Positions 3,717-63,943 of a stretch of DNA of 64,000 nucleotides are shown here, piece by piece. The stretch's first letter is position 1; every line of letters begins with the position of its first letter. A model generated the notes under the pieces. It ran no database searches. It saw nothing but the letters and a program-made list of their open reading frames with translations, and was not told the origin of the DNA. The DNA comes from Bacteroidota bacterium (GTDB taxonomy: Bacteria; Bacteroidota; Bacteroidia; Flavobacteriales_F; PHOS-HE28), in the NCBI GenBank assembly GCA_014584605.1, contig JACTMO010000053.1:89792-153791 (forward strand), read 5' to 3'. The position numbers and the translations under genes are program-made.

Positions 3717-3736
3717 GGCGGGCCGAACAGACCTCT

Positions 3737-3774
3737 TCCGCCGGATCCTCGGTGCGCGCCGCCGGATCCTCGAT
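3737..3774 (+). promoter_or_regulatory. Two direct repeats of CCGCCGGATCCTCG, 21 bp start-to-start; candidate LytTR operator
   Basis: Copies at ~3738-3751 and ~3759-3772, about 75-110 bp upstream of the ATG at 3849. The same motif pair recurs at 5583-5617. Confidence 0.4.
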
Positions 3775-3848
3775 CCCCATGGGCCGGGTCGTTCGGCCGC
3801 TGGACTTTTGGTCCGTCACCGCACGATCACCCGTCAACCCGACCCGTC

Positions 3849-4652: not shown

Positions 4653-4754
4653 GCGGAGGGATGGGAGCGGAAGCACATGGTATGAACGATATCTACGACC
4701 TTGCGTCCTGAAGCCAACGGACCTGCACCAGCCTTAACCAATAACACCGACCTC

Positions 4755-5528: not shown

Positions 5529-5550
5529 CGGATCGACAGCCAACGTGTTG

Positions 5551-5573
5551 AACGGCGCCGAAGGGGCGCCGTT
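5551..5573 (+). terminator. Perfect 9-bp stem hairpin (AACGGCGCC-GAAGG-GGCGCCGTT) just after the 5528 stop; terminator-like but no U-tract
   Basis: Inverted repeat read directly from the sequence. No T-run follows. Confidence 0.3.
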
Positions 5574-47700: not shown

Positions 47701-48390
47701 ATGAAGTGCGGCGTCGTCATCTTCCCGGGCTCCAACTGCGACGAGGACATGGTGCAGGTGCTGGAGGCCCAGGGCGGCGGTCCGGTCGAGCGGCTTTGGC
47801 ACAAGGAGCACGACCTGCGGGGCTGCGACCTGGTGGTGCTGCCCGGCGGCTTCAGCTACGGGGACTACCTGCGTTCGGGGGCCATCGCGCGGTTCTCGCC
47901 CATCATGCAGGAGGTGGCGGCCCATGCCGAACGCGGCGGGCTCGTGCTGGGGGTGTGCAACGGGTTCCAAGTGCTGTGCGAAGCGGGACTGCTGCCCGGA
48001 GCGCTGCTGCACAACGGGGGCCAGCGCTTCATCTGCCGCAACGTGCACATCACGCCGGCCACCAAGCGCACCGCGCTCACACAGGCCATCGCGCGCAAGG
48101 TGCTCACCATCCCCATCGCGCACGGCGAGGGCCGCTACCACATCGATGCCGCCGGCCTCAAGCGCCTGAAGGACGGCGACCAGGTGCTCTTTCGCTATTG
48201 CGATGCCGAAGGGAATGTGCACGAGGAGGCCAACCCCAACGGCAGCATGGACCACATCGCGGGCGTGTGCAACGAAGGCCGGAACGTGTTCGGCATGATG
48301 CCCCATCCGGAGCGTGCGGCCGATGCCCTGCTGGGCAACACCGACGGCATGGCGCTGTTCACCGGGCTCCTAAAGGCCGTCGCCGTCTGA
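47701..48390 (+). CDS. purQ: Phosphoribosylformylglycinamidine synthase subunit PurQ (glutaminase)
   Basis: '[17 protein letters not shown]', '[20 protein letters not shown]', '[11 protein letters not shown]', 'MPHPER' are class I GATase/PurQ signatures. Confidence 0.9.
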
Positions 48391-50418
48391 GACCACCGGC
48401 ATCAGGAGCGGCCGCACCTTCCGGTCCCCGGCGGGGTCCGCCCACGCCCCCGCAGCATCCTCCCGGCACCCTTCCCAGCCCAGGAGCCGCATGCCCGGCG
48501 CGGGCAACGCCTCCAACCGCAGGGGTGCGCCCGCGAAGCCGGTGATGCTGTGCCGGCCCGGCGGGAGCACGATGCCGTCGAGCAGCACGGTCCCTTGGGC
48601 ATTTTCCGGGACCAGGACGGAGACGGTGCCCAAGGAGGTGCCCGTGAACCGGGCCAGATGGCGCAGCAGATGTCCGGGCCGGCGCAGGGCGTGGACGCGC
48701 AGGTCGGCGTGGCTCTCTTCCGGGGTGGGCATGGCCATGCGACGGTGCCAGAGGGCGTGGTCGGCGCGCATCAGCGCGGCATGCGCCGCGAACAGGCTGT
48801 CGGCCAGCGCGGCGGCAGGGGCGGGTGCCAGCACGGTGGCCAGGAGCGTGGCCGTTCGCGCCAGCAGCAGCGGGCGCAACTGCGGATGGTCCAACAGGGC
48901 GGACAGGTATGGGGCGGCCGGGAGCGGCGCCTGGGCGATGCGGCTTGCCGAGGGGTCCTCCGGTGGGGCCCACAGGTCCATGTCGTACAGCACCCAGCGC
49001 CACCGGCCTCCGGGCTGTGCGGGGCGCCAGCAGCGCATGTTCAGGTCGTGGTCGGCACGGCCGGACCACAGGTCGAAACAGGCCAGTTCGATCAGGCTTC
49101 CGAGGTCGATGAAGACCTCCAGACTGTCGAGCGGTGCGCGTCGCGCCAAAAGGTCCAGGGCCCGTTCATAGGGCGCACGGTCGCCTTTCACCACGCGCCC
49201 CTCGGGACCCTCCACGATGTCCAGATGTTCGGCCTCGGTCAGGGACAGCAGAAAGTCCTCGTTCTTGGCGGGCATCAGCCGATAGGTCCCCTGCGGAACA
49301 CCGTTGAGCGTAAGCGGCAACGGGGTGCCTGGCTGCACATCGAGGCGGTCGCCGGCGCGGTGCACGCTCACCTCGGCGAACAGGTTGCGCAGCAAGGCGT
49401 GCGGGGTGGCGTCGGCACGCAGCACCACGTTGCGCCAGGTGCTGCCATCGGGCAGGGGCAGGCTGCGCGTGCCGTCGGTGGCGCTGAGGTTGAACGAACG
49501 CTTGGGCAAGCCGCGCGAGCCGGAGCCCGAGAGGCGAAGGCGCACGGCCGAGGCAGCGGTATCCACCATGCCGGGCAGAGCGACCTTTGCGGGCCGTACC
49601 CAGGCCGGGCCGGTACGGACATGGTTGGCGCGGTCGCCTTCGATCATCAATCCGCGCCGGGGGTCGAACAGCTCCGGCGGGTTGATGCAGAGCGAAGCGC
49701 CCGAACCAGGGGCTTTCTGTCCCTGCACCCAGGTCTCGGCGCTCGCGAGCAGGTCGGCGCGCCAGGCCACCGCCCGCACGGTGCGGTTCTCCGGAAGGGC
49801 CATCGGGCCGGTGACCACGGTGCCATGGCCGGGGGAGGGCGGGCTGCCGTCGGTGGTGCAGGTCACCGTGCAGCCGTTGCAGGCGTTGAGCACGAGACCG
49901 CCCATCGTGCGTTGTGCCACGGGGGCCGGTGCCCGGCCCCGGATGGGCTGTGCGGCCCGGTTGGGCGCTTCCGGTCCCGGGTCGGTGAGAAAGCTCCAGG
50001 TGCCCGCCCCGTCGGGCAGGCGACCGATGGAGACCCCGGGCGGCACGCTGGGCCAGCGGAAGGCATCGAGCATGCGGCGACCATCCGCACCGAAGAGCAG
50101 CAGATCGCCACCGGCCGCAGGCAGGTGCATCAGAGCGCCTTCCCCATCGCTCCGACCCCGCACCACCACCATGCGATGCCGACCCGGAGGCAGGAGCGGC
50201 TGCTCCTGCAGCACCACCCGGAATGGTTCGCGGACCAGGAGCATGCCGTGAAGGTCCACGGGTACCGTATCGGCATTGAAGAGCTCCACCCAGCCGCTGT
50301 CCGCCGGATGCACCATGGGCAGCACCTCGTTGATCCGCACGGCCTGGGCCTGTGCGATGAGACCGGACCCCCACATCAGCAGGGCCGCCATGGCGTGGCG
50401 GGGCAGGCGTTGGCACAT
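48370..50418 (-). CDS. Secreted lamin-tail-domain (LTD) protein, CotH-like
   Basis: Signal peptide '[26 protein letters not shown]'. LTD signature 'VRINEVLP...DSGWVELFN'. The large central domain is of CotH-like type (tentative). Confidence 0.5.
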
Positions 50419-50670
50419 CGGGCCAAAGTTGGCATGGCGCGGAGCATGCTGCCGCAAGTATCGGTTAACACGGCTGCCGCCGGTCCTGCTTACGGAGCCG
50501 GTGCGCAGGAAGCGGTCGATCCCGGCATCGGACAGGGGCGTGAAGAAGTGTGGAGGTGAGGATGGCCAGGGCTTTCAGCTTCCTTACGTCCTCACCTCTT
50601 CACCGGAACAGGTTGGATCTTCGTTGCCGCTTCAGTAACTTGCCCACGCTCCGAACGCCACTACGTCTCC

Positions 50671-52062
50671 ATGCGCAACACGACCCTGCTTCTTCTATCC
50701 GGCCTTGCCATCAGCGCCATGGGCCAGGGCACGATCACCAGTGTACAGATCACCCCGAGCACGCTCACCGAATGCACGTTCATGAACGTGACGGTGATCG
50801 GCACCATCCCCGGGAACGCCCAGGTGACGGGTTTCGTCCCGGGGCAGAACGGGAACAACATCACCATCGTGTTGACCGCCTCGGGCACGGGAGGCGGAAC
50901 GGGATCGTTCAACCAGCCGTTGCCGCCCCTGGGCCCGTACACCGCCGGGACCTACAACGTGCAGATCTCGCTGGAGCTGAACGGCACCATCACGGATACC
51001 GAGACGCTTCAGCGCACCGTGCAGCCGGGCGTGAACCCTGACGCGGGCACGGATGCCTCGGTCTTGGGGGTGTGCGACACGGACCCCAATTTCCTGTTGA
51101 TCAATGAACTGGGTGGTTCGCCCGACCCCGGAGGGGTGTGGACCAACCCGCTGAACCAGCCGCACAGCGGCAATTTCAACCCGGGCACCGATCCGGGCGG
51201 GTTCTACCTGTACACCATCGAGGCCCTGGCCCCGTGCAGCACCGTGCAGAGCAGCGTGTACGTGGAATACGCGCCCAACAGCGATCCCGGTGACGATGGC
51301 GCGGTGACCGTGTGCGTGAACGGGGCTCCGATCGACCTGTTCGCCAACCTGCAGGGCACCCCGGAGACCGGTGGCACGTGGAGCGGCCCCAGTCCGGTGG
51401 TGAACGGCCAGTACGACCCGGCCACGATGACGCCCGGAGCCTACGTGTACACGGTGCAGGGCATGGGCAACTGCGGCAACCCCTCGGCCACGGTGACCGT
51501 GAGCGAGGCGAACCTGCCCAACGCCGGCACGGCCGTGCCCATCACGGCCTGCGCCACGGACACCAGCCTGACGCTCAGTACCGGGCTCACGGGTAATCCC
51601 TTGCAAACGGGCGTGTGGCTCGATCCGCTCGGTTTTCTGCTCGGGCCCTACAACGTGGTCATCAACCCGTCCATCTACGGTGCCGGCAACCACAACTTCC
51701 GCTACGTGGCCACCAACACCTTCTGCCCCAACGACACCACCACGGTGCCGGTGACCCTGCTGGCCGCACCGTGCGGCATCAGCGTGCAGGAGATCGCCGC
51801 CGGCGTGACGCGATTCAAGGTAATGCCCAACCCGGCCCGCGAACGCGCCACGGTGGAGCTGAGCCTTGCCGCGGGCATGGGTGCGGTGCGGCTGGAGTTG
51901 CTCGGCACCGACGGCCGTTCCGTGCGTCGGGAGCGGCTGGCCGGCAGCGGCCGCACCGAACTGCGCCACGACCTCGACCTCGGCGGGCTCGAGGCAGGCA
52001 CCTACCTGCTGCGCCTCACCACGGACCGTGGGAACGTGGCGCGGACCCTGGTGGTGGAATAA
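50671..52062 (+). CDS. Secreted T9SS type-A CTD protein (Ig-like repeats)
   Basis: Signal peptide 'MRNTTLLLLSGLAISAMGQ'. C-terminal 'FKVMPNPARERATVELS...GTYLLRLTTDRGNVARTLVVE'. Confidence 0.7.
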   Translation: MRNTTLLLLSGLAISAMGQGTITSVQITPSTLTECTFMNVTVIGTIPGNAQVTGFVPGQNGNNITIVLTASGTGGGTGSFNQPLPPLGPYTAGTYNVQISLELNGTITDTETLQRTVQPGVNPDAGTDASVLGVCDTDPNFLLINELGGSPDPGGVWTNPLNQPHSGNFNPGTDPGGFYLYTIEALAPCSTVQSSVYVEYAPNSDPGDDGAVTVCVNGAPIDLFANLQGTPETGGTWSGPSPVVNGQYDPATMTPGAYVYTVQGMGNCGNPSATVTVSEANLPNAGTAVPITACATDTSLTLSTGLTGNPLQTGVWLDPLGFLLGPYNVVINPSIYGAGNHNFRYVATNTFCPNDTTTVPVTLLAAPCGISVQEIAAGVTRFKVMPNPARERATVELSLAAGMGAVRLELLGTDGRSVRRERLAGSGRTELRHDLDLGGLEAGTYLLRLTTDRGNVARTLVVE

Positions 52063-52269
52063 GCCAGCGACGGTCGAACGGGCGGGGCGGTGCATCGCAT
52101 GGTGCACCGCCCCGTGCGCTTCACAGCGCGTTGCGCGTCACCCAGTAGCGCCAGGCCACCAGCAGCTTTTGGAGCTTGGAAAGGCGCGTGAGGTCCTTGT
52201 CCCAGAGCTTGGGCAGCACGGCCTTGTTCAGGCGGGCCAGCAGGCGGAACACGGAGCGGCGCATGGGAC

Positions 52270-53238
52270 CTATCGGCATGCGGTGCCGCAGTGCTCGTGC
52301 TCCCACTCGAGCTCGATGGTGGCGTGATGGATGCCCAGCTCCTGGAGCACCTCGCGGGCGCGGCTTTTGACGGCCAGGGCCTCGCGAAGTTCCACATCGG
52401 CCACCACCAGGTGCACCGTGTGGACCACGAAGCTCCCGTCCAGGCTCCAGGTGTGCTGGTCGTGCAGGTCGCGCACATGGGGCAGGGCCAGCAGCCTCTC
52501 GCGCACGGCGGCCAGGTCGATGCCTTCGGGCACATGCTGCATGAGGATGGCCGTTCCACGGCGCAGGGTGCCCACGGCGTTCACCAGGATGAAGAGGCTG
52601 ATGCCCACGCTCAACAGGGGGTCCACCACGGCCCAGCGGGTGAAGTGGATCACCACGGCGCCCACCAGCACGGCCGCCCAGCCCAGCACGTCCTCCAGCA
52701 GATGCAGGTAGGCGCCGCGTTCGTTCAGTGTGGCACCGCCGTGCAGGCGCCAGGCCGCCAGGCCGTTCATGGCCAGGCCGAAGAGGGCGATGCCGATCAT
52801 GCCCACGGCGTGGGGCTCCCGGGGGTGCAGCACCTTGGGCAGGCTCACCACCATCATGCCCAGTGCGCCGACGATCAGCACCAGGCTGGTGAGCCACCCG
52901 CCCAGCATGCTGAAGCGGCCGTAGCCGTAGCTGTAGTGCGGATCGCGACCCTTCAGGGCCACCCGCTGGAGCCACCATGCGGTGCCCAGCACCAGGCAAT
53001 CGCCAGCGTCGTGCATCGCATCGGTGAGCACCGCGATGCTCCCGGTCCACCACCCACCGCCCAGCTCCACCAGGGTGAAGGCCAGGTTGAGGAAGAAGGC
53101 GGCACGCAGCGCCCGCGCACCCTCGGCCTTCACGTGACCGTGTGTGTGGGAGGGCCGCCCCGCAAGGTGGTGCGGCCCGTGATGGTCATGCTGCGGATGA
53201 ACGTGTGCCACCGGTGCAAGGTAGCCCGGCCGCAACAA
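52270..53238 (-). CDS. Cation diffusion facilitator (CDF) family metal efflux transporter
   Basis: His-rich N-terminus 'HVHPQHDHHGPHH...HTHGH'. TM2 'AVLTDAMHDAGD' and TM5 'HLLEDVLGW' metal-binding motifs. There is no in-frame ATG before TM1, so the start is TTG (53238) or GTG (~53211). Confidence 0.85.
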   Translation of the reverse strand: MLRPGYLAPVAHVHPQHDHHGPHHLAGRPSHTHGHVKAEGARALRAAFFLNLAFTLVELGGGWWTGSIAVLTDAMHDAGDCLVLGTAWWLQRVALKGRDPHYSYGYGRFSMLGGWLTSLVLIVGALGMMVVSLPKVLHPREPHAVGMIGIALFGLAMNGLAAWRLHGGATLNERGAYLHLLEDVLGWAAVLVGAVVIHFTRWAVVDPLLSVGISLFILVNAVGTLRRGTAILMQHVPEGIDLAAVRERLLALPHVRDLHDQHTWSLDGSFVVHTVHLVVADVELREALAVKSRAREVLQELGIHHATIELEWEHEHCGTACR

Positions 53239-53279
53239 GGACGAGGAACGATGCCGTGGCCGCCCCCTACCTTGCGCCC

Positions 53280-53747
53280 ATGTCCACGCCCGTCGCTCCC
53301 GCGCCGCGCACCTTCGGCCAGAAGGTGGGGCGCTTCACCATCCGCCTGCTCCTGCTGGTCCTCGTCGGCCTGCTGGCCTGGCTGCTGTTCATCTACTACG
53401 CCGTGTACAGCGAGGGCAGCCGGAGCGGCATGGTCATCCGGCTCAGCAAACGCGGGGTGCTGTTCAAGACCTGGGAGGGACAGCTGAACATGCAGAGCTT
53501 CGGGGCCGTGGACCCCAAGGGGACCTCCCTGAACGAGGTGTTCAACTTCAGCGTGCAGAAGGGCGATGAAGGGCTCTACCGGCAACTGGAAGAGGCCAGC
53601 CTGAGCGGAGAGAGGGTGAACCTGCACTACGTGGAGCGCTACGCCCGGCTGCCCTGGCGGGGCGAGACGACCTGTTTCATCACCCGGGTGGAGCGCAGCG
53701 GCACGCCGGGCGATGCGCAGCGGGAGAGGTCGCCCGTGGGGCACTGA
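53280..53747 (+). CDS. Hypothetical membrane protein
   Basis: 'FTIRLLLLVLVGLLAWLLFIYYAVY' TM helix followed by a ~120-aa soluble domain. No family recognised. Confidence 0.4.
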   Translation: MSTPVAPAPRTFGQKVGRFTIRLLLLVLVGLLAWLLFIYYAVYSEGSRSGMVIRLSKRGVLFKTWEGQLNMQSFGAVDPKGTSLNEVFNFSVQKGDEGLYRQLEEASLSGERVNLHYVERYARLPWRGETTCFITRVERSGTPGDAQRERSPVGH

Positions 53748-55709
53748 TCAGCCCACCACCACGCGCCCGGTCTTGCGGGCGAGGGCCACCTTGGCCTTGA
53801 TGAGCAGCATCTTCTTTTGCAGGACCTCAGCCTGCCCCTCCGGCCGTTCCGTGTCGCGCAGGCGCTCGTCGAGCTCTTCCAGCATGCGGTCCAGGCGGCG
53901 TTCCCGCAGGATGTCGAACCCCTCCTCCAGCGCGTCCTGCAGTTTGTCGCGCTCGTGCACGGTGTGGATCCGGTGGCGTTCCTTCCAGTTGGGGCTCAGC
54001 AGATGGCGGTCGGTGAGCAGGTCGATGGCCAGTTCGCGCCAGTCCGCCTGGTCGTGCCCGGCATAGTGTGCGGCACTGACGTCCTCCCCCCTGTTGCTGG
54101 CGTGCCGGTAGTCCATGTAGATCTCCCTGAACAGGGGCTCATCGAACATCAGGTCGTCCAGGGCCAGGAGCTCGAACATGTACTCGGCCACGCTGTATTC
54201 GGTGTCGCTGGTGCTGCCGTCCTCGAGCCGGATGGGCACCATGATCCGCTGGTGGCCGTAGTTGAGCAGGATGCGCAGCAGGTCGCGCTCCTGGGCCGCG
54301 GTGCCTTTGATGGGCGCGGGAGGGGGCTGGGGCACCTGCAGCGCGGGGGCCTCGACCTCTGGGACCTCGTGCGTGCCATGCCGTTTTCGGTAAGCGCTCC
54401 GCAGCACCTTGTTCAGTTCGCTCAGCAGGGCCTGTTCGCTCACCTCCATCAGGCGGCCGCATTGCTGGATGTACAGCTGGCGCAGCACCTGGTCGGGGAT
54501 GCGGGCGATGCTCTCCACGATGCTGTGGATGGCGGCCGCCTTGAGGACGGGATCGCCGCCGGTGTCCTTCACCAGCAGCTCGGTCTTGAACGCCAGGAAA
54601 TCCCTGGCGGCATCGCGCAGGAAGACCTCCACCTCGCTGCTGGGGCGGCTGCGGGCGAAGCTGTCGGGGTCCTCCCCATCGGGGAAGAGCACCACCTTCA
54701 CGCCCAGGCCTTCGGCCAGGATGAGGTCGATGCCGCGCAGGCTGGCCTTGATGCCGGCGGGGTCGCCGTCGTACAGGATGGTGACCTGCCCGGCGTAGCG
54801 CTTGATCAGGCGCACCTGGTCCTCGGTGAGGCTGGTGCCGCTGCTGGCCACCACGTTGCGGATGCCGGCCTGGTGCAGGCTGATCACATCGGTATAGCCC
54901 TCCACCAGCAGGCAGGTGCCGCTGTCGGCGATGGCCTTCTTGGCGAAGTGGATGCCGTACAGGGAGCGGCTCTTGACGTAGAGGGTGCTCTCGGGGCTGT
55001 TGAAGTACTTGGGCAGCTTCGCGCCGCCGCCTTTGTCGCTGCGCAACGCACGTGCCCCGAAGGCGATCACCTGCCCGCCGAGCCCGTGCACGGGGAAGGT
55101 GACACGCCCGGCGAAGAAGTCCCACGCCGTGCCGTCCTCGCGTCGCTTGATCCAGCCGGCCTTTTCCACCAGCTCGGGGTCGAAGCCCTGGGCGCGGGCG
55201 GCGGCGGCGAAGGCCGAGCCCTGTTCGGGCACATAGCCCAGCTGGAAGGTGCGGATGACCTCGTCGCGGAAACCGCGCTCGTGGAAGTAGGCCAGGCCGA
55301 TGCGGCGCCCCTCATCGGTGTCCCAGAGCTGGCCGATGCTCCATTCGGTGGCGAAGCGCTGCACGGCGGCCAGGCTCTCGCGTTCGCTGTGCTCCAGTTG
55401 CTGCTCCGGGGTGGCCTCTGTCTCCGGCAGGTCGATGTGGTACCGCTTGGCCAGCCAGCGGATCGCCTCCACGTAGCTCAGATGCTCGTGCTTCTGCAGG
55501 AAGGTGATGGCGTCCCCGGCCTCGCCGCAGCCGAAGCACTTGAAGATGCCCAGCGCGGGGCTGACGTTGAAGCTGGGCGTCTTCTCGTTGTGGAAGGGGC
55601 ACAGGCCCAGGTAGCGGGGCCCCTTGCGCTTCAGGGCCACGAACTCGCCCACGACCTCTTCGACGCGGACGACGTCCTTGACGCGTTGAATGGCCTCGGG
55701 CGCGATCAC
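53748..55709 (-). CDS. dnaG: DNA primase
   Basis: Zinc ribbon 'CPFHNEKTPSFNVSPALGIFKCFGCGEAG' and TOPRIM 'LLVEGYTDVISLHQAGIRNVVASSGTSLT'. Tail-to-tail with the previous gene. Confidence 0.95.
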   Translation of the reverse strand: MIAPEAIQRVKDVVRVEEVVGEFVALKRKGPRYLGLCPFHNEKTPSFNVSPALGIFKCFGCGEAGDAITFLQKHEHLSYVEAIRWLAKRYHIDLPETEATPEQQLEHSERESLAAVQRFATEWSIGQLWDTDEGRRIGLAYFHERGFRDEVIRTFQLGYVPEQGSAFAAAARAQGFDPELVEKAGWIKRREDGTAWDFFAGRVTFPVHGLGGQVIAFGARALRSDKGGGAKLPKYFNSPESTLYVKSRSLYGIHFAKKAIADSGTCLLVEGYTDVISLHQAGIRNVVASSGTSLTEDQVRLIKRYAGQVTILYDGDPAGIKASLRGIDLILAEGLGVKVVLFPDGEDPDSFARSRPSSEVEVFLRDAARDFLAFKTELLVKDTGGDPVLKAAAIHSIVESIARIPDQVLRQLYIQQCGRLMEVSEQALLSELNKVLRSAYRKRHGTHEVPEVEAPALQVPQPPPAPIKGTAAQERDLLRILLNYGHQRIMVPIRLEDGSTSDTEYSVAEYMFELLALDDLMFDEPLFREIYMDYRHASNRGEDVSAAHYAGHDQADWRELAIDLLTDRHLLSPNWKERHRIHTVHERDKLQDALEEGFDILRERRLDRMLEELDERLRDTERPEGQAEVLQKKMLLIKAKVALARKTGRVVVG

Positions 55710-55758
55710 GGTGGGGCCCCGCGTGTTCGGCGGGGATCGAAGGTAAGGCGGTGGCCGG

Positions 55759-56250
55759 TCAATGTTCGGCGCGCACCGTGCCGGTGCTGTCGTACACCAC
55801 GGTCTTGATCAGCGCGCCGGCCTCGTCGTGGAACCGCCATTCGCCCACGGGGGTGCCGTGGTGGTTCTGGCCCAGGTAGCGCACGGCGCCGTTGGGGTGG
55901 AACACTGCCACGGGACCATGGGCCATGCCATCGCGATATTCGGTCTGGCTCAGCAGGCGGCCCCGCGTGGTGAAGCTGCGCCAGATGCCATGTCTGCGGC
56001 CGTTGCGGACCACGCCCCGCAGGGTGGTGCCGTCGGGGAGCTGCTGCACCTGGGGCCCGTCGCGCGGTGCGGCGGGGACCGTGTCGCCCCCCACCGCCCC
56101 CGGGTCCGCCTGTTCGGCATGGGGGTTCTCCGGTACGCCGCACGCGGTCAGCATCAGGAGCAGGAGCAGCGACCAGGTCCTGGCCAGGGCCTTCGTCGTC
56201 CGGCCCTGAGGCGCATCGGGGTGCAACGGGAGAGGGGGCGTTGGGCTCAT
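55759..56250 (-). CDS. MORN-repeat lipoprotein (YwqK-like)
   Basis: Lipobox 'LLLLMLTACG'. Repeated 'G..R.G.W..F' MORN-like units. Confidence 0.55.
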   Translation of the reverse strand: MSPTPPLPLHPDAPQGRTTKALARTWSLLLLLMLTACGVPENPHAEQADPGAVGGDTVPAAPRDGPQVQQLPDGTTLRGVVRNGRRHGIWRSFTTRGRLLSQTEYRDGMAHGPVAVFHPNGAVRYLGQNHHGTPVGEWRFHDEAGALIKTVVYDSTGTVRAEH

Positions 56251-57233
56251 TTCTCGCGGTCCACGGTGAGGTGCACGAGTCCTTCGAGGGAGCGCCGTGC
56301 CGGGGTGTCGGCGAAGGTGTGCAGCACCTCCAGAGCCTGGTCCCGGAGCTCCAGCATGCGCCGTTGGGCATGGGCCACGCCGCCCACCTCCACCACGCGG
56401 CGCACCACGCGGTCCACGGCGGCGCGGTCCTGCTGGCGGGCCTTCACGGCGCGCACCATCCAGCGGCGGTCCCCGGAAGGGACCTGGCGCAGGGCGTGGA
56501 TCAGCGGCAGGGTGAGCTTGCGCTCCTTGATGTCCAGCCCGGTGGGCTTGCCGGTGGGGCTGCTGTCCGGCCCGTTCACGGGGTAGTCGAACAGGTCGTC
56601 CTTGATCTGAAAGGCGATGCCGGCCAGTTCGCCGAAGCGGCGCATGCGCTCCACCTCATCGGGGCTGGCCCCGCCGGCCGCAGCTCCGCTGGCGCAGCAG
56701 GCGGCGATCAGGCTGGCGGTCTTCTGGCGGATGATGTCGAAGTACACGGCCTCGTCGAAGTTGAGGGAGCGGGCCTTCTCCAGCTGCAGCAGCTCGCCCT
56801 CGCTCATTTCTCGGACCGCACGGCTCACAATGCCCAGCAGTTCGAACTGGCGGTGCTCCACGGCCAGTAAAAGGCCCCGGCTCAGCAGGTAATCGCCCAC
56901 CAGCACGGCGATCTTGTTCTTCCACAGGGCATTGATGCTGAAGAAGCCGCGGCGGAGCGGGCTGGTGTCCACCACATCGTCATGCACCAGGGTGGCGGTG
57001 TGCAGCAGCTCGATGAGGCTGGCGGCCACGAAGCCGTTGTCGTTCACCGGACCGAACTGGCGGGCGCTGAGCAGCGTGAACATGGGCCGCATCTGCTTGC
57101 CCTTGCGGCGCACGATGTAGTGCATCACCCGGTCGAGCAGGGCCACCCGGCTGCGCATGGCCTCGCGGAACCGCCCCTCGAACACGCGCATCTCCTCGGC
57201 GATGGGGCGCTGGATCTCCTCGAGGCTGGGCAT
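56247..57233 (-). CDS. Polyprenyl diphosphate synthase (IspB-like, trans-isoprenyl diphosphate synthase)
   Basis: FARM 'LVHDDVVD' and SARM 'KDDLFD'. Overlaps the downstream gene by 4 nt. The start could be ATG 57233 or 57263. Confidence 0.85.
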   Translation of the reverse strand: MPSLEEIQRPIAEEMRVFEGRFREAMRSRVALLDRVMHYIVRRKGKQMRPMFTLLSARQFGPVNDNGFVAASLIELLHTATLVHDDVVDTSPLRRGFFSINALWKNKIAVLVGDYLLSRGLLLAVEHRQFELLGIVSRAVREMSEGELLQLEKARSLNFDEAVYFDIIRQKTASLIAACCASGAAAGGASPDEVERMRRFGELAGIAFQIKDDLFDYPVNGPDSSPTGKPTGLDIKERKLTLPLIHALRQVPSGDRRWMVRAVKARQQDRAAVDRVVRRVVEVGGVAHAQRRMLELRDQALEVLHTFADTPARRSLEGLVHLTVDREK

Positions 57234-57300
57234 GGACCGGGGGCGGAGGGCAAAGATGCGCATCGGCCGGTCGGTGGGAGGCACCGCCGCTGCGGACCCT

Positions 57301-57912
57301 TCAGGGCTTCACGGGCCGCGGTCGGTCGTCCCCGGCCAGGGTCCAGCCGCCGTTCTCCACCACGGCGCGCAGCACCACCAGGAACTCCTCCTTCTGCTTG
57401 GCGGCGGCTTCGAAGAGCCCGCTCTGCGGCAGCCGTTGCTCGATGCGGGCCTTGGCCTGGGCCTGCATGCGGGTGTGGTCCGCGGCGCTGAAATCGGCGA
57501 AGGCCCCCTCCTGCAGGTCGAAATACTTCACGTCGTGCTCCAGGGCCAGGAGCTTCGGTGCGTCCATGCCGGTGAGGCGCACCGTGCGCGTGGCCTCGTC
57601 GAAGGAGAGCCCCAGCCCGTCCAGGTCGTAGCCCACCGAGGCGCGGGCCTTCACCAGCAGGATGGCCTGCTTGCGGTTCCAGCCCATGTTCCTGGTCCAG
57701 TCGAACCACGCCGCGCTGTTGTCGCTGTAGGTGAACACTTCGCTGAGGTCGCCCTCCACCGTCACCAGCTTCAGCACCGGGCGGATGCGCTCCAGCAACA
57801 CGGTCTCCGTCACCTGTTCGGCCGGTGCGTCGGGCCGGTACGCCTCGCGGGTGAGGAAGAAGACCAGCAGGGCCACGCCCAACAGGAGCAGGAGACCGGT
57901 GGTGCGTTTCAT
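57301..57912 (-). CDS. DUF4230-domain protein (N-terminal TM anchor)
   Basis: 'MKRTTGLLLLLGVALLVFFLTRE' anchor followed by a soluble DUF4230-like domain. Its 5' end and upstream region are duplicated at 59854-59995. Confidence 0.6.
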   Translation of the reverse strand: MKRTTGLLLLLGVALLVFFLTREAYRPDAPAEQVTETVLLERIRPVLKLVTVEGDLSEVFTYSDNSAAWFDWTRNMGWNRKQAILLVKARASVGYDLDGLGLSFDEATRTVRLTGMDAPKLLALEHDVKYFDLQEGAFADFSAADHTRMQAQAKARIEQRLPQSGLFEAAAKQKEEFLVVLRAVVENGGWTLAGDDRPRPVKP

Positions 57913-57953
57913 GGTGCGGTGGCAAAGGTGGCACGGCGGCGCCGTAAGTCGCC
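57812..57953. repeat. Direct repeat copy 1 (~140 bp; the central ~100 bp is near-identical to 59854-59995)
   Basis: Aligned by eye: 57850-57950 versus 59892-59992 differ at 1-2 positions, and the flanks are more diverged. Covers the DUF4230 start codon, about 33 codons of coding sequence, and ~40 bp upstream. Confidence 0.7.
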
Positions 57954-57984
57954 TCTGAGCTGCCGTTGCCCGTTCTGACCGGTT

Positions 57985-58012
57985 GGTTGTGGATCACACA
58001 AGGTAGTTTCAT
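57985..58012 (+). promoter_or_regulatory. Candidate Bacteroidota-type promoter (TTG ... TAGTTTCA) upstream of the low-GC T9SS gene
   Basis: 'GGTTGTGGATCACACAAGGTAGTTTCATCACGG' resembles the -33 TTTG / -7 TAnnTTTG architecture, about 25 nt upstream of ATG 58033. Confidence 0.3.
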
Positions 58013-58032
58013 CACGGTAAGCTCCTGATCCC

Positions 58033-59814
58033 ATGAAGACAACGCAGACTTTGGCCGTGTCAATGGCCCTGGGCTCTCTATCATCCATGGCACAGAGCTT
58101 CGATCACTTGGATGCGAACATGATCCGGGCCCGATTCACGGCCCATGGCATGATCGGGCTTGATCGGAGCGTTGGCGAGCCGGATTTTGAGGTGCCCGTT
58201 GGAAGCGGGGCCCATGCGTTGTTCGCAGCCTCAATGTGGGTGGGTGGGTACGATACGCTTGGCAGCTTGCATCTTGCTGGCCTGCTGTTCGACCAGAACG
58301 GGCTGCCCGACTACGCCCCAGGACCGCTTACAACGGACGGCAGCGCATCGATCACTCCGGCCGTGTCAGCCCAGTATGATCAAGTGTTCAAGGTCAAAGC
58401 CGTGGATGTTGCCCTGCACCAGGCCTACTACGATTGTTTGAACACGCCAGGATGCGATGTCAATGTTCAGTTCCCCGGGTATGTGATACCCCAGAGTTTT
58501 CTTGACTGGCCAGGGAACGGTGACACCTTGGCTGGTCAGGCCGCCCGGTTGGCGCCATTCATCGATCTTGATGGTGACGGGCTGTATGAGCCGACCGCCG
58601 GTGATGCACCATGCATCCACGGGGATGAAGCACTCTATTTCATGTTCAATGATGTGCTGAACCCGCATGGCACGGGCGGTGCTCCCCTTGGTATCGAGGT
58701 CCATGCCATGCCCTTCGCATTCTATTCCGCCAACGAGGCACTCGCGCACACGCTCTTCATCAAGTACCGGCTCATCAATCGAAGCGATGACTCCTTTGAA
58801 ATGGTCCGCATTGGTCTGTTCACTGACTATGACCTTGGATATGGTCGTGATGACTACGTGGGCTCTGATCCCGGAAGGAATCTCGGCTACGTGTACAACG
58901 CGGATACGCTGGATGAAACGACATCAACCTATACCGGATATGGGTCGATGCCACCCGCTTTTGGGACAACGCAGCTCAAAGGTCCGTTCCTGGAGCCTGA
59001 TGGGTTTGACGATCCCGAAGGACCGGGTATACCCGCTTTCAATGGCTCTGGTTTTGGTGACCTGGTGGTCGACAATGAACGTCATGGTGTCGCGTACATG
59101 ACCTACTTCAGCAATGACGCCACCGCCCGAGGCAATCCGAATACAGCCGAACAGTTCTTCGGTTATCTGAGCGGGTACTGGCGCGACGGAACACCGCTCT
59201 TCCATGGAGGCACTGGGCATTACTCCGATCCCGAGGCCACGACCGTTCCAGCGCGCTTTGCATTTCCAAGTTCTGAAGACCCACTTGGAGCGGGAACAGG
59301 TGGTCAGGTGATGGCTCCATGGGCGGAGCATTCATCAGGCAATCAACCGAGGGATAGGCGGATGGTCATGTCGGCCGGACCCGTGGAGCTGGATGCCGGA
59401 GAGGAGATCGAACTTGTCTACGCGTTCGTGTTCGCCCGCCCAGGATCCAATGGGCTGATGAGCAGCGTTCTGCGGCTACAGGAAAGGGTGGATTCGGTAC
59501 AGGCTTTTTACAATGATCTGCCGGAGGCGTGCAACGGAGCGGGATCTCAGGTGGGTTTGGAGGAACACACAGACCGTGGACCAATCGTATTTCCCGTTCC
59601 GGCCGAAGATCGTCTGACCTTAAGGCTTGAGGTCCCCGGTCCAGTGGAATTGGTCGTGTACGATATGCTCGGCGTGGAGTGCTCGAGAGGGCGCGATACC
59701 GGGGATCTGATCCAGATCGACCTTTCGGAGCTTGGTCAAGGCTCGTATCTGTTGCATGTTGCTCAAGGCGAGGTGAGCCATGTTGTTCCGTTCATGAAGA
59801 TCACGACCAGATAG
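58033..59814 (+). CDS. Secreted T9SS type-A CTD protein of unknown function, with markedly lower GC than its surroundings
   Basis: Signal peptide 'MKTTQTLAVSMALGSLSSMAQS'. C-terminal 'IVFPVPAEDRLTLRLEVPGPVELVVYDMLG...GSYLLHVAQGEVSHVVPFMKITTR'. Third-codon positions are visibly less G/C-rich (~55% GC by eye versus ~70% for flanking genes). Confidence 0.7.
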   Translation: MKTTQTLAVSMALGSLSSMAQSFDHLDANMIRARFTAHGMIGLDRSVGEPDFEVPVGSGAHALFAASMWVGGYDTLGSLHLAGLLFDQNGLPDYAPGPLTTDGSASITPAVSAQYDQVFKVKAVDVALHQAYYDCLNTPGCDVNVQFPGYVIPQSFLDWPGNGDTLAGQAARLAPFIDLDGDGLYEPTAGDAPCIHGDEALYFMFNDVLNPHGTGGAPLGIEVHAMPFAFYSANEALAHTLFIKYRLINRSDDSFEMVRIGLFTDYDLGYGRDDYVGSDPGRNLGYVYNADTLDETTSTYTGYGSMPPAFGTTQLKGPFLEPDGFDDPEGPGIPAFNGSGFGDLVVDNERHGVAYMTYFSNDATARGNPNTAEQFFGYLSGYWRDGTPLFHGGTGHYSDPEATTVPARFAFPSSEDPLGAGTGGQVMAPWAEHSSGNQPRDRRMVMSAGPVELDAGEEIELVYAFVFARPGSNGLMSSVLRLQERVDSVQAFYNDLPEACNGAGSQVGLEEHTDRGPIVFPVPAEDRLTLRLEVPGPVELVVYDMLGVECSRGRDTGDLIQIDLSELGQGSYLLHVAQGEVSHVVPFMKITTR

Positions 59815-59844
59815 GGAAGATCATCATGCAACCGAGGATCCGGT

Positions 59845-59955
59845 TCACCCCTCCACCTCCTCGGCCGGTGGCGCGGGCCGGTACACCTCGCGGGTGATGA
59901 AGAAGACCAGCAGGGCCACGCCCAACAGGAGCAGGAGACCGGTGGTGCGTTTCAT
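59845..59955 (-). pseudogene. Truncated duplicate of the DUF4230 N-terminus (36 codons), inside direct repeat copy 2
   Basis: Encodes 'MKRTTGLLLLLGVALLVFFITREVYRPAPPAEEVEG*', compared with the intact gene's 'MKRTTGLLLLLGVALLVFFLTREAYRPDAPAEQVTE...'. Confidence 0.5.
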
Positions 59956-59995
59956 GGTGCGGTGGCAAAGGTGGAACGGCGGCGCCGATACCTTT
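59854..59995. repeat. Direct repeat copy 2
   Basis: See copy 1. Confidence 0.7.
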
Positions 59996-60000
59996 GGCCG

Positions 60001-60597
60001 ATGCGCCACGGATGGCTGTTCTCCACGTGCGTCGTGGGTCTTCTGTTGGCCGGATGCGGCGCAGCGTCCCGTGTGGACCTGGACACGCTGCGGACCATGG
60101 AGCACCGGCTCGCGGATGGCGCGGTCGTGGCGGGTCGATCGCTTTTCGGTGCGGGCCACACCTTGGTGCTGACCCTGGATCCCGAGTGCCCGCTCTGCCT
60201 GATGCACGCGCCCGAGCTGGCCACGCTGGTGCCCGATGATGGGCTGCACATCGTGGGGCTGTATGCGTCGCCCTACATTGTCCCCGACAGCGCGCGGGCC
60301 TTCGCCGAACGGAACGGGTTCCGCTTTCCGCAGGTGATGGACCCTGCGTGTGCGATCGCGCAGGCGTTGGATGCGGTGGTCACCCCCGAGGCGTTCCTCC
60401 TGGCGGCGGACGGCACGGTGCTGTACCGTGGCGCCATCGACGATCGCGCACAGCGGGCCGGGCGCAAGAAGCCCGAGGCCACCCGCCATCATCTGCGCGA
60501 TGCGCTCGCGGCCGTGCGGCGGGGTGAACGTCCTGCTGCGGCCCATGTGCGGGCCGTGGGCTGCTTTCTGGAATGCACGGAAGTGGAGGTGCCATGA
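60001..60597 (+). CDS. TlpA-like thiol-disulfide oxidoreductase / redoxin lipoprotein
   Basis: Lipobox 'WLFSTCVVGLLLAGCG'. 'TLVLTLDPECPLCLMHAPEL' is a CxxC thioredoxin-fold motif. ATG at 60001. Confidence 0.65.
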   Translation: MRHGWLFSTCVVGLLLAGCGAASRVDLDTLRTMEHRLADGAVVAGRSLFGAGHTLVLTLDPECPLCLMHAPELATLVPDDGLHIVGLYASPYIVPDSARAFAERNGFRFPQVMDPACAIAQALDAVVTPEAFLLAADGTVLYRGAIDDRAQRAGRKKPEATRHHLRDALAAVRRGERPAAAHVRAVGCFLECTEVEVP

Positions 60598-61988
60598 GGG
60601 AGATGGCCATCATCGTGGTCCTTGCGGCCTGGTTGGCCCTACTGCCCGGCTGTGGTCCGGTGGACCCGGTGGATGCGGTGACGGACCTGCCCGACACGGT
60701 GACCTTCGCCGACCACATCGCCCCGCTGGTGCGCAGCCATTGCATGCCGTGCCACAGCCCTGGGCATGCCGGCCCCTTCGCGCTCATCACCTACGGGGAT
60801 GTGCGGCGCAAGGCGCGCACCGTGGGGCATGTGACGCGCCAGCGGTTCATGCCGCCATGGCCGGCGGACACCACCTACAGCCGGTTCGTGGGCGAGCGGG
60901 TGCTCACGGCACGGCAGATCGCGCTCATCGGGAAATGGGTGGAGCAAGGCATGCCGCCGGGCGACACGGCTGCGCTGCCCCCGATGCCTGTTGTCCAGGA
61001 GGCCGGAGGGCTGGGCCCGCCGGACCTGGTGGTGCCGGTGTCGGGCACCTGCACCATCCCGGGCGATGGGCGGGACCGCTTCATCATCGCCAAGGCGCCC
61101 TTCGAGCTGGTGCGGGACACCTTCCTGCGGGCGGTGGCCTTCGTGCCGGGGAACCGCCGCCTGGTGCACCACATGAACGGCGCGCTCATCAACTACCCGG
61201 AAGGGGCCAAGGCCGACGTGTTCGCCGGGTCGGGACCGATCGACGCCGAGCAGCTGGGCGGTCCGCCGGCCTTCGCGCAACTGGGCCTGGCCAACGACGA
61301 TGGCAGCTGGCCGCCCCTGGTGCCCAGCGTGGTGAACTACCTCCCCGGCCTGGCACCGCTGGTGCTGCCCGAGGGACTGGGCGGTCTGTATCTGGCGCGC
61401 AAGGGCGCCTTCCTGCTGAACACGGTGCACTATGGCCCCAGCGACCGGGAGGCTACCGACCGGAGCAGCTTCCACCTGTGGTTCGCGCGCCGCGCGCCGG
61501 AACGCCCGTTGCAGGAGCTTGCCATGGGCAGCACGCACACCCCCGTGGTCCCACCGCTGCACCTGGAACCCGGCGAGGTGCGCACCTTCAGCACCCGGCT
61601 CACCGTGCCCAAGGCGATCAGCGTGCTGGCCGTGAACCCCCACATGCACCTGCTGGGCACCCGCTTCAAGGCCTATGCACTGCGCGGTGCGGACACCATC
61701 CCGCTGGTGCGCATCCTGGATTGGGATTTCCGCTGGCAGTACAGCTACACCTTCCGGCATCCGGTCCCGCTGCGTGCCGGGGATGTCCTCGTGGCCGAGG
61801 GCAGCTTCGACAACAGTGCGGAGAACCCGGACCAGCCCTTTGACCCCCCGCGCGAAGTGCAGGGCCGTGACAGCCGGTTCATGCGCACCACCGACGAGAT
61901 GTTCCAGTTCTTCGTCACCTATGTGGACTGGAGGGCGGGGGATGAGAGCCTGCCATTGAGTGCGGTCGATCCATCCGTCGGCAAGTGA
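60594..61988 (+). CDS. Lipoprotein with an N-terminal heme-c motif (CxxCH) and a PHM/DBH-like type-2 copper monooxygenase-like domain
   Basis: Lipobox 'LAAWLALLPGCG'. 'HCMPCHSPGHAGPF' (CxxCH). Candidate Cu ligands 'LVHHMNG' (HH), 'NPHMHLLG' (HxH) and 'TDEMFQF' (Met), in the order seen in peptidylglycine monooxygenase-like proteins. The start overlaps the upstream redoxin gene by 4 nt. Confidence 0.5.
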   Translation: MREMAIIVVLAAWLALLPGCGPVDPVDAVTDLPDTVTFADHIAPLVRSHCMPCHSPGHAGPFALITYGDVRRKARTVGHVTRQRFMPPWPADTTYSRFVGERVLTARQIALIGKWVEQGMPPGDTAALPPMPVVQEAGGLGPPDLVVPVSGTCTIPGDGRDRFIIAKAPFELVRDTFLRAVAFVPGNRRLVHHMNGALINYPEGAKADVFAGSGPIDAEQLGGPPAFAQLGLANDDGSWPPLVPSVVNYLPGLAPLVLPEGLGGLYLARKGAFLLNTVHYGPSDREATDRSSFHLWFARRAPERPLQELAMGSTHTPVVPPLHLEPGEVRTFSTRLTVPKAISVLAVNPHMHLLGTRFKAYALRGADTIPLVRILDWDFRWQYSYTFRHPVPLRAGDVLVAEGSFDNSAENPDQPFDPPREVQGRDSRFMRTTDEMFQFFVTYVDWRAGDESLPLSAVDPSVGK

Positions 61989-63595: not shown

Positions 63596-63943
63596 TCACG
63601 GAAGGTCGTCGCGCACCTTGCGGGGCAGGGCGGCGCGGACCCGATCGTGGCTGTGGCGGGCCATTTGCAACAGCAGGCGGTGGGGTACGCTGCCGTCGGT
63701 GCGCACCGTGTTCCAGTGGCGCTTGTTCAGGTGAGGGCCGGGGGTGATGCCGGGGTATCGTTCCCGCAGCTCGATGGTACGCTCGGGATCGCACTTCAGG
63801 TTCACGCTCCCGAAGCGGTCCACGTCCAACCGTGCGATGATGCGGCCGCCCACACGGAAGGCCAGCACGTCCGGTCCGAAGGGAGGGTCCTTGCTGAAAC
63901 CCGGCAGCCCGGCGCAGTACGCGCGGAACGCCGCGAGCGTCAT
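63596..63943 (-). CDS. MmcQ/YjbR-family protein
   Basis: 'MTLAAFRAYCAGLPG...FGPDVLAFRVGGRIIARL...LKCDPERTIELRERYPGITPGPHLNKRHWNTV' matches the MmcQ/YjbR fold. Confidence 0.7.
   Translation of the reverse strand: MTLAAFRAYCAGLPGFSKDPPFGPDVLAFRVGGRIIARLDVDRFGSVNLKCDPERTIELRERYPGITPGPHLNKRHWNTVRTDGSVPHRLLLQMARHSHDRVRAALPRKVRDDLP

What the first reader, a model, noticed from the sequence alone, without database searches (positions are those of the whole stretch)
57812..59995. Lower-GC T9SS cargo gene inserted between ~140-bp direct repeats that duplicate the 5' end of a DUF4230 gene
The 1.8 kb ORF 58033-59814 has visibly lower GC (A/T-ending codons are common) than the ~70% GC neighbours. It carries its own Bacteroidota-like promoter. 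It is bracketed by two direct repeats (57812-57953 and 59854-59995) whose central ~100 bp are near-identical. Each repeat contains the DUF4230 start codon, ~33 codons of coding sequence and ~40 bp of upstream sequence. Copy 1 belongs to the intact DUF4230 gene. Copy 2 yields only a 36-codon truncated fragment with several amino-acid substitutions. The geometry is what a horizontally acquired segment leaves after integration by homologous or site-specific recombination within the 5' end of the DUF4230 gene. Such repeats could also mediate excision, duplication or phase-like loss of this secreted protein.
Basis: seen in the sequence. Interest (0 to 1): 0.75.

Follow-up and report, generated by a model that had tools for sequence, protein, structure and literature searches.

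The report
Acquired gene flanked by target duplication
One lower-GC gene for a secreted protein was inserted between two back-to-back genes of a wastewater Flavobacteriales bacterium, duplicating 134 bases of the target. Relatives with the empty site exist, and the insert has since passed between related species by homologous recombination, so this is a very clean but essentially ordinary case of gene gain.

Summary
A 134-nt direct repeat (57811-57944 and 59854-59987, 126/134 identical, 76-nt identical core) brackets a 1909-bp segment of GC 0.57 in a 0.67-GC window. That segment holds one ORF (58033-59814) with a T9SS type A C-terminal domain. Related Flavobacteriales MAGs show both states. 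Empty sites have DUF4230 and the redoxin gene divergent, 45 nt apart, with a single copy of the 134 nt. Occupied sites have the same insert/repeat junction, which points to one ancestral insertion. Cargo GC is 0.57 against 0.68 flanks only in this clade. Two low-GC contigs (0.57-0.60) carry a 57%-identical homologue divergent from DUF4230 without any repeat, and one also has the redoxin downstream. Cargo dS between occupied species is at most 0.165, against 0.54-0.66 for the neighbouring backbone gene, so the cassette spread between species after they split. The window itself is a mosaic: DUF4230 is 99-100% like an empty-type lineage, and copy 1 right part through the redoxin gene is 96-100% like L017. 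Independent Logan contigs confirm this mosaic. There is no recombinase, no terminal inverted repeat and no consensus promoter. How the duplication first formed is unresolved. This is a well-documented islet of a known kind, of moderate-low interest.

The parts
57301..57912 (-). Intact DUF4230 gene (203 aa). Positions 57186-57867 are 99-100% identical to the empty-site lineage L004.
   Evidence: Pfam PF14014 E=2e-17; sliding identity; dS window-L004 0.047 versus 0.42 for the Cu-monooxygenase-like backbone gene
57811..57944 (.). Repeat copy 1: DUF4230 codons 1-34 plus 32 nt upstream, including a CACCTTTG box 10 nt before the ATG. It is a hybrid: the left ~45-55 nt are empty-type (L004-like) and the right ~80 nt are L017-type.
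   Evidence: the hybrid is confirmed in independent contigs L085 and L087, which match the window 100% up to 57885
57945..59853 (+). Inserted segment, 1909 bp, GC 0.57: 88 nt upstream, the cargo ORF, and 39 nt downstream. It is absent from empty-site genomes.
   Evidence: BLAST against L004-L010 leaves exactly this gap; the junction GCGCCG|TAAGTCGCC is identical in the window and L011-L013, L016, L017, L019-L022, L024; GC
58033..59814 (+). Cargo gene, 593 aa: N-terminal signal-peptide-like start, a galactose-mutarotase-like beta-supersandwich body, and a T9SS type A C-terminal sorting domain (residues ~519-590).
59854..59987 (.). Repeat copy 2: a duplicated DUF4230 5' end plus 32 nt. It differs from L017's copy 2 at 2 positions. 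In L017 it is 134/134 identical to copy 1.
59845..59955 (-). Truncated DUF4230 fragment ORF (36 aa, MKRTTGLLLLLGVALLVFFITREVYRPAPPAEEVEG). It keeps the start codon and the transmembrane segment. It diverges between lineages at about the same rate as the neighbouring DNA.
59988..60000 (+). The 13 nt between copy 2 and the redoxin ATG, holding the exact TAnnTTTG box (59989-59996). The junction is identical in empty-site genomes.
60001..60597 (+). Redoxin/AhpC-TSA lipoprotein gene (198 aa). It is part of the ~2.6-kb tract (~57900-60500) that is 96-100% identical to L017.
   Evidence: Pfam; identity 95.1% to L017 against 72% to L004; tract limits

Best explanation
This is a single-gene genomic islet. 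A 1.9-kb piece of DNA from a lower-GC relative carries one gene for a T9SS-secreted, probably carbohydrate-binding protein. It was inserted once into the short divergent control region and 5' end of DUF4230 in a high-GC (~0.68) activated-sludge Flavobacteriales lineage that previously had DUF4230 and a redoxin gene back to back, 45 nt apart. The event duplicated 134 nt of the recipient's own sequence (DUF4230 codons 1-34 plus 32 nt upstream). As a result the intact DUF4230 keeps its start (copy 1), and the redoxin gene keeps its native upstream DNA (copy 2 plus the 13 nt with its -7 box). The same gene order, DUF4230 - homologue - redoxin, exists without any repeat in lower-GC contigs, so the gene was regained at its orthologous locus. 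After that single event the cassette was passed among already diverged species by ordinary homologous recombination in the flanking genes. The window's genome is one such recombinant. Its backbone resembles the empty-type lineage. A ~2.6-kb tract (right part of copy 1, cargo, copy 2, redoxin) came from an L017-like genome. A ~0.7-kb DUF4230 tract is shared with an empty-type lineage and ends inside copy 1. Shown: the insertion state, the single origin, the foreign composition, the younger age than the host species, the mosaic, and purifying selection on the cargo. Inferred: the direction of transfer, the promoter-preservation rationale for keeping copy 2, and the molecular mechanism that produced the duplication. 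For that mechanism the most likely options are a single crossover of a circularised fragment carrying the DUF4230 5' end, or one homologous plus one illegitimate join between sister chromosomes.
For: Empty sites: L004-L010, L025, L027 and L079-L084 have the redoxin and DUF4230 divergent with a 45-nt spacer and otherwise the same synteny. L004 5969-6102 aligns to both window copies. Single origin: the insert/repeat junction is identical in all occupied genomes. Foreign composition: cargo GC 0.57 and GC3 0.62-0.63 in the occupied genomes examined, against flanks of 0.68. In 40+ other family members the gene's GC is close to its flank's (mostly within 0.03). Orthologous locus in low-GC relatives: L033 has DUF4230 (69% aa), 117 nt, homologue (57% aa), 63 nt, redoxin, with contig GC 0.57 and no repeat. 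L037 has the same left half and comes from the same metagenome as occupied L034. Younger than hosts: cargo dS is 0.05-0.165 against 0.54-0.66 for the adjacent backbone gene in the same genome pairs, excluding the closely related L012-L026 pair. Functional: dN/dS 0.15-0.25. Mosaic of the window. Independent confirmation: L085 and L087 match 100% up to 57885 and L001 matches 100% over 57902-59974. The occupied structure sits in multi-Mb contigs. Copy 2 is the recipient-type DUF4230 5' end: 134/134 identical to copy 1 in L017. The empty-type junction is older than the cassette: L004 differs from occupied lineages by backbone dS 0.42 (measured window-L004), well above the cargo's maximum of 0.165, yet it shares the spacer junction.
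Against: The donor is not identified; the nearest homologue outside the cluster is only 57% identical. Homology between the insert's 88-nt leader and the L033 intergenic region is not significant (z about 0). No trend of the cargo towards host GC could be shown (the control gene behaves similarly, so the test is uninformative). Loss of the cassette by recombination between the repeats cannot be excluded for some empty lineages, for example L027, whose single copy resembles L017's. Four switches in relatedness fall inside copy 1, including between genomes that are all occupied. Simple flank recombination does not specifically predict this.
Confidence: 0.75

Rival explanations
1. This is a recombinase-less mobile cassette. 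The 2,043-bp unit (insert plus one repeat) excises as a circle by recombination between the two copies and re-integrates Campbell-style into the DUF4230 5' end of related genomes. The repeat would then be its address, not merely a scar.
For: The architecture matches the microcin H47 islet: 148/144-bp imperfect direct repeats, no recombinase, and excision and integration seen even in recA- cells (PMC3191183). Switches in relatedness fall inside copy 1 in four genome pairs. L017 has perfectly identical 134-nt copies. Copies 1 and 2 share lineage-specific states. Short-read graphs break exactly at the repeats.
Against: In the one transfer that can be traced (window and L017) the shared tract runs ~500 nt beyond copy 2 through the redoxin gene. 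That fits a linear double crossover, not a circle. L012 and L019 are identical from copy 1 through more than 4 kb to the right. No circle junction or tandem form was seen. Contig breaks at repeats are expected from any repeat longer than the assembler's k-mer length.
Confidence: 0.1
2. The cargo is an ancestral resident of this locus, as in L033. Empty sites are secondary deletions by recombination between the repeats, and the low GC has some non-HGT cause.
For: Low-GC contigs place the homologue next to DUF4230 in the same orientation, and L033 shows the full DUF4230-homologue-redoxin order. Recombination between 134-nt repeats would regenerate exactly the empty-site sequence. The cargo-L033 divergence (57% aa) is in the range of its neighbours' divergence (DUF4230 69%, redoxin 42%).
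Against: Copy 2 plus spacer plus redoxin reproduces the empty-site junction, so an empty-type arrangement must have existed before the occupied one. Cargo dS between occupied species (at most 0.165) is 3-4 times lower than backbone dS. GC3 of 0.62 in genomes whose neighbouring genes have GC3 0.80-0.94 is not expected for a long-resident gene. Elsewhere in the family, members have GC close to their flanks'.
Confidence: 0.1
3. The structure is an assembly artefact or a chimeric contig joining co-occurring strains at a conserved stretch.
For: The window comes from a metagenome-type assembly of a community holding several related lineages. The mosaic breakpoints coincide with a repeat.
Against: The occupied structure with both copies occurs in at least 10 independent assemblies from NCBI, ENA, JGI and Logan, including contigs of 2.07, 2.28 and 3.9 Mb. 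Window-specific pieces are reproduced at 100% identity in separate sequencing runs, including the hybrid copy 1. The copies are 94% rather than 100% identical.
Confidence: 0.02
4. The gene was inserted by a transposable or integrase-driven element (IS, transposon, integrative island), of which only the passenger gene is left.
For: Direct repeats flank the insert, and the insertion lies at a gene end, as with islands that rebuild the targeted gene end.
Against: The insert has a single ORF with no transposase or integrase domain. The insert ends carry no terminal inverted repeats. A 134-nt duplication is far longer than transposon target duplications. No tRNA or known att-type site is involved.
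Confidence: 0.03

Closest known systems
Microcin H47 genomic islet of E. coli (PMC3191183; PMC5426353)
   Same: A small islet without its own recombinase, flanked by unusually long imperfect direct repeats (148/144 bp, 76% identical there; 134 bp, 88-100% here). Recombination within stretches of identity inside the repeats gives hybrid copies.
   Different: That islet is 13 kb with many genes, and its excision and integration were shown experimentally. Here there is one gene, the repeats are a duplicated gene 5' end plus promoter region, and no excision or integration was observed. The traced transfer was by flank recombination.
Campbell-type (single-crossover, 'insertion-duplication') integration of a circular DNA carrying a short chromosomal homology
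   Same: The product geometry is the same: the insert is bracketed by two direct copies of the homologous segment. One copy completes the gene and the other is a truncated 5' fragment.
   Different: That process is known mainly from suicide plasmids and from site-specific elements. Here no vector, replication or recombinase functions are present, and the circular intermediate is hypothetical.
Homology-facilitated illegitimate recombination and transformation-generated merodiploids (PMC3240628; PMC3784515)
   Same: Foreign DNA is integrated with a homologous join on one side and an illegitimate join on the other. Pairing with sister chromatids can leave duplications of recipient DNA.
   Different: The described cases usually delete recipient DNA or make 100-900-kb tandem duplications between IS copies. 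A 134-nt duplication around a 1.9-kb insert has not been shown to arise this way, and competence of these bacteria is unknown.
Accessory-gene islets exchanged by homologous recombination in conserved flanking genes (general knowledge of bacterial population genomics)
   Same: There is presence/absence polymorphism at a fixed site between core genes. The tract of high identity spans the islet and ends in the flanks. The islet is younger than the host genomes.
   Different: Such islets normally lack a target duplication. Here the exchange crosses lineages only ~80-87% identical in the backbone.
Integrative islands that target and rebuild a gene end (tRNA 3' ends; dusA 5' end, e.g. PMC8409611 by title and own knowledge)
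   Same: The insertion lies at the 5' end of a protein gene, with a duplicated gene end so that the gene stays intact.
   Different: Those islands encode a tyrosine integrase and have short att cores. Here there is no integrase, and the duplicated segment is recipient-type sequence.

Membership tests
T9SS type A cargo protein | C-terminal type A sorting domain (TIGR04183 / PF18962) | tested here: met
   TIGR04183 23.8 bits against the curated cut-off of 23. PF18962 E=6e-5, below its gathering score. The modelled C-terminal domain superposes on solved T9SS C-terminal domains 8glk_D (TMt 0.82) and 8qb1 (0.75).
T9SS type A cargo protein | N-terminal Sec signal peptide | tested here: inconclusive
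   The sequence MKTTQTLAVSMALGSLSSMAQS looks like a signal peptide, and residues 1-20 are disordered in the model. No signal-peptide predictor was available.
T9SS type A cargo protein | T9SS machinery in the same genome | tested here: inconclusive
   PorP/SprF and other Por_Secre_tail genes lie near the locus in relatives and in the window's lineage (L017, L019, L085). The core genes (gldK-N, sprA) were not searched for.
Integrative mobile element (island, ICE or IME) | Encodes an integrase or other recombinase | tested here: not met
   The insert has one ORF whose only family hit is the sorting domain. No recombinase is among the called neighbours in 20+ loci.
Integrative mobile element (island, ICE or IME) | Short att core repeats, typically at a tRNA or specific gene end | tested here: not met
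   The repeat is 134 nt of recipient coding plus upstream sequence, with no tRNA involved.
IS or transposon | Transposase, terminal inverted repeats, and a short (2-14 bp) target duplication | tested here: not met
   No transposase. No inverted repeat pairs the two insert ends. The duplication is 134 nt.
Recombinase-less islet flanked by long direct repeats (microcin H47 type) | Long imperfect direct repeats and no recombinase in the islet | tested here: met
   comparison with PMC3191183
Recombinase-less islet flanked by long direct repeats (microcin H47 type) | Demonstrated excision to a circle and re-integration through the repeats | not testable with these tools
   This needs PCR or long reads. 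The contigs in hand show only integrated or empty states.
Horizontally acquired islet (operational definition) | Atypical composition, an empty site in close relatives, and a gene genealogy discordant with its flanks | tested here: met
   GC/GC3; empty sites; dS discordance
DUF4230 (PF14014) for the flanking gene | Pfam match above the gathering score | tested here: met
   64 bits against 27

The most novel reading that the evidence does not exclude
The 2,043-bp unit is a minimal 'homology-addressed' mobile cassette. It has no recombinase of its own but carries a 134-nt copy of the DUF4230 5' end, through which it loops out as a circle and re-enters the same site in related species using host recombination. 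The recurrent breakpoints inside copy 1 and the perfectly identical copies in L017 would be footprints of such cycles. In addition, copy 2 keeps a complete native DUF4230 promoter and start, which could drive a 36-aa membrane peptide and antisense transcription into the cargo's 3' end.
Probability: 0.1. Interest if true: 0.6.

Novelty: new member of a known kind. Interest (0 to 1): 0.3.

Why it matters
It is an unusually complete natural record of how a single gene enters and spreads in uncultured bacteria. Public data hold the empty site, the occupied site with its scar, a lower-GC relative with the gene at the orthologous locus, and recombinants between species only ~80-87% identical. The case shows that gene flow by flank homology operates across species boundaries in activated-sludge Flavobacteriales. 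It also shows that a duplication of a divergent promoter and gene start can let an insertion land in a 45-nt control region without inactivating either neighbour. It does not reveal a new kind of element or mechanism.

Full report
OBSERVATION. The repeat is real. The repeat finder reports 57811-57944 and 59854-59987, 134 nt, 94% identical, spacing 2043. Seven of the eight differences lie in the left 45 nt. The identical core is 76 nt, 57856-57931 = 59899-59974. A 61-nt core occurs exactly twice in 64 kb, with none expected from shuffles.

Each copy contains the DUF4230 start codon, 34 codons and 32 nt of upstream sequence. Copy 2 ends in a 36-aa ORF. The composition anomaly is also real. The two 1-kb bins covering the insert have GC 0.566 and 0.587, against 0.627-0.717 for the other 62 bins. 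The ORF 58033-59814 has GC3 0.62, against 0.80-0.94 in five neighbouring genes.

GENE IDENTITIES.
- 57301-57912 (minus strand) is a DUF4230 protein.
- 60001-60597 is a redoxin/AhpC-TSA lipoprotein.
- 60573-61988 is a Cu-monooxygenase-C-domain protein.
- 56247-57284 is a polyprenyl synthetase.

No exact Bacteroidota -7 box (TAnnTTTG) precedes the cargo. Only six such boxes exist in the window, and five of them lie 4-37 nt before a long ORF. One (59989-59996) sits 4 nt before the redoxin ATG, immediately outside copy 2.

EMPTY AND OCCUPIED SITES. The cargo's 90% cluster occurs in many Flavobacteriales MAGs, including contigs of 2.07, 2.28 and 3.9 Mb. Close relatives of the DUF4230 protein occur on more than 100 contigs in which the redoxin and DUF4230 genes are directly divergent with a 45-nt spacer. 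Two GTDB species representatives are also empty and one is occupied.

At nucleotide level a single stretch, L004 5969-6102, aligns to both window copies. The window therefore equals the empty site plus 1909 bp plus a 134-nt duplication. The junction right of copy 1 (GCGCCG|TAAGTCGCC) and the junction copy 2|ATACCTTTGG-redoxin are the same in every occupied genome, which indicates one ancestral event. In L017 the two copies are 134/134 identical. In the L012/L019 type they are 88% identical and copy 2 has a 6-nt in-frame deletion.

ORIGIN. The cargo family comprises about 600-aa T9SS proteins of Flavobacteriales/Bacteroidota. In more than 40 other loci the gene's GC is close to its flank's, mostly within 0.03. 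Only the occupied clade shows a gap, 0.57 against 0.68.

The two nearest homologues outside the cluster (57% aa) sit on low-GC contigs (0.57-0.60), next to a divergently oriented DUF4230. In L033 the homologue is followed by a redoxin gene. That is the same gene order as the window, with no repeat. L037 comes from the same metagenome as the occupied L034. A 54% homologue follows a redoxin plus Cu-monooxygenase-like gene pair. So the gene is native to this locus in lower-GC relatives and was introduced into a high-GC lineage whose site was empty.

The empty-type junction is shared by lineages whose backbone dS is about 0.4 or more (0.42 window-L004). That exceeds the maximum cargo dS between occupied species (0.165), so the empty arrangement is the older one in this clade.

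SPREAD AND MOSAICISM. Cargo dS between occupied lineages is 0.05-0.165, against 0.54-0.66 for the adjacent Cu-monooxygenase-like gene in the same pairs, apart from the closely related L012-L026 pair (cargo 0.08, backbone 0.19). Cargo dN/dS is 0.15-0.25. The cassette is therefore functional and 3-4 times younger than the species that share it.

The window is a three-way mosaic:
- Positions 57186-57867 are 99-100% identical to the empty-type L004, against about 90% further left.
- Positions ~57900-60500 (right part of copy 1, insert, copy 2, redoxin) are 96-100% identical to L017.
- The next gene is only about 80% identical to L017 and 86.5% to L004.
- The window's left neighbours (polyprenyl synthase, MORN, DnaG) are those of empty-type genomes, whereas all other occupied genomes have GcpE/CpeT there.

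This explains the 'substitutions' in the copy-2 fragment. Copy 2 keeps the L017-type DUF4230 5' end, while copy 1's left part is the empty-type allele. Because the shared tract with L017 extends through the redoxin gene, this transfer was a linear double crossover in the flanks, not a circle integrating through the repeat. Similar sharp switches inside copy 1 separate L012 from L017 and L012 from L019.

ARTEFACT CHECK. Independent Logan contigs reproduce the window exactly:
- L085 (SRR30202059) covers 48247-57885.
- L087 (SRR28758104) covers 54829-57885. Both contain the hybrid copy 1 and stop inside the repeat.
- L001 (SRR28758106) covers 57902-59974.

ENA contigs whose names indicate MEGAHIT k=141 read through both copies in relatives. 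Misassembly is therefore excluded for the structure and very unlikely for the mosaic.

MECHANISM. Shown: an insertion with duplication of recipient sequence, no recombinase, no terminal inverted repeats, and later flank-mediated exchange. Not shown: how the duplication arose. Three routes fit.
- A single crossover of a circularised fragment carrying about 134 nt of DUF4230 5' end (Campbell geometry).
- One homologous join and one illegitimate join involving sister chromosomes, in the manner of HFIR or merodiploid formation (PMC3240628, PMC3784515).
- Replicative template switching.

A functional rationale, which is inference, is that the 45-nt spacer cannot be split without orphaning one promoter. 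The duplication leaves DUF4230 with its CACCTTTG box and start. That box is conserved in L004 and L033. It also leaves the redoxin gene with 146 nt of native upstream DNA plus its TACCTTTG box.

COMPARISON AND VERDICT. The nearest described architecture is the recombinase-less microcin H47 islet with 148/144-bp imperfect repeats (PMC3191183). The nearest process for the spread is ordinary islet exchange by flank homology. The feature fails the tests for an integrase-driven island and for an IS or transposon. It is a new, very well documented member of a known kind, a small horizontally acquired islet bounded by a long target duplication. Interest is moderate-low (0.3). The most novel reading that the evidence does not exclude is a homology-addressed cassette that cycles through a circle, at about 10%.

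Noticed in passing
window 63596-63943 (minus strand): A YjbR-like 115-aa gene is present in the window and in occupied-type genomes. It is absent from empty-type genomes (L004-L010, L079), where the cyclase and DUF502 genes are adjacent. This is a second presence/absence difference 3.6 kb from the cargo.
   Followed up: partly
window ~57340 (3' end of DUF4230) and leftwards: There is a synteny break. The window and empty-type genomes have polyprenyl synthase, MORN and DnaG to the left of DUF4230. All other occupied genomes have GcpE, CpeT and DUF5122 there.
   Followed up: partly
window 60001-60200; L012 7939-8138: The first ~200 nt of the redoxin gene are hypervariable: 63-66% identity between L012 and L026, which are 93-99% alike on either side. 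Window-L004 redoxin dS is ~0.95, against 0.42 in the next gene. This suggests deep allelic lineages or diversifying selection.
   Followed up: no
window 10885, 30933, 46654, 47659, 59989, 63571: Only six exact TAnnTTTG boxes occur in 64 kb (2.8 expected). Five lie 4-37 nt upstream of a long ORF start. The redoxin and DUF502 genes start 4 and 7 nt after the box, suggesting leaderless or near-leaderless mRNAs.
   Followed up: partly
window 38602-39018 and 41562-41978: A diverged direct repeat (278 + 124 nt, 72-77% identical, spacing 2960), together with shorter related repeats at 37.6-42.7 kb. They look like tandem paralogous genes.
   Followed up: no
L042, L056, L064 (metagenome contigs): Members of the cargo family occur as tandem pairs in other Bacteroidota contigs, so the family expands by local duplication elsewhere.
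   Followed up: no
L019 15757-16131, L020, L021: A 124-aa bAvd/23S_rRNA_IVP-type gene lies between the HemN and HATPase genes in some occupied genomes. It is missing in L017, which is another small indel in this neighbourhood.
   Followed up: no
L030 ~3521-5552: In a more distant relative (DUF4230 76% aa) the Cu-monooxygenase-like gene is directly divergent from DUF4230 with no redoxin between them. The DUF4230 upstream junction is therefore rearranged repeatedly in this group.
   Followed up: no
window 59748-59835: An imperfect 17-nt inverted repeat (82% complementary, 54 nt apart) straddles the cargo stop codon, with no T-run after it. It may be a weak terminator-like hairpin carried by the insert.
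   Followed up: no
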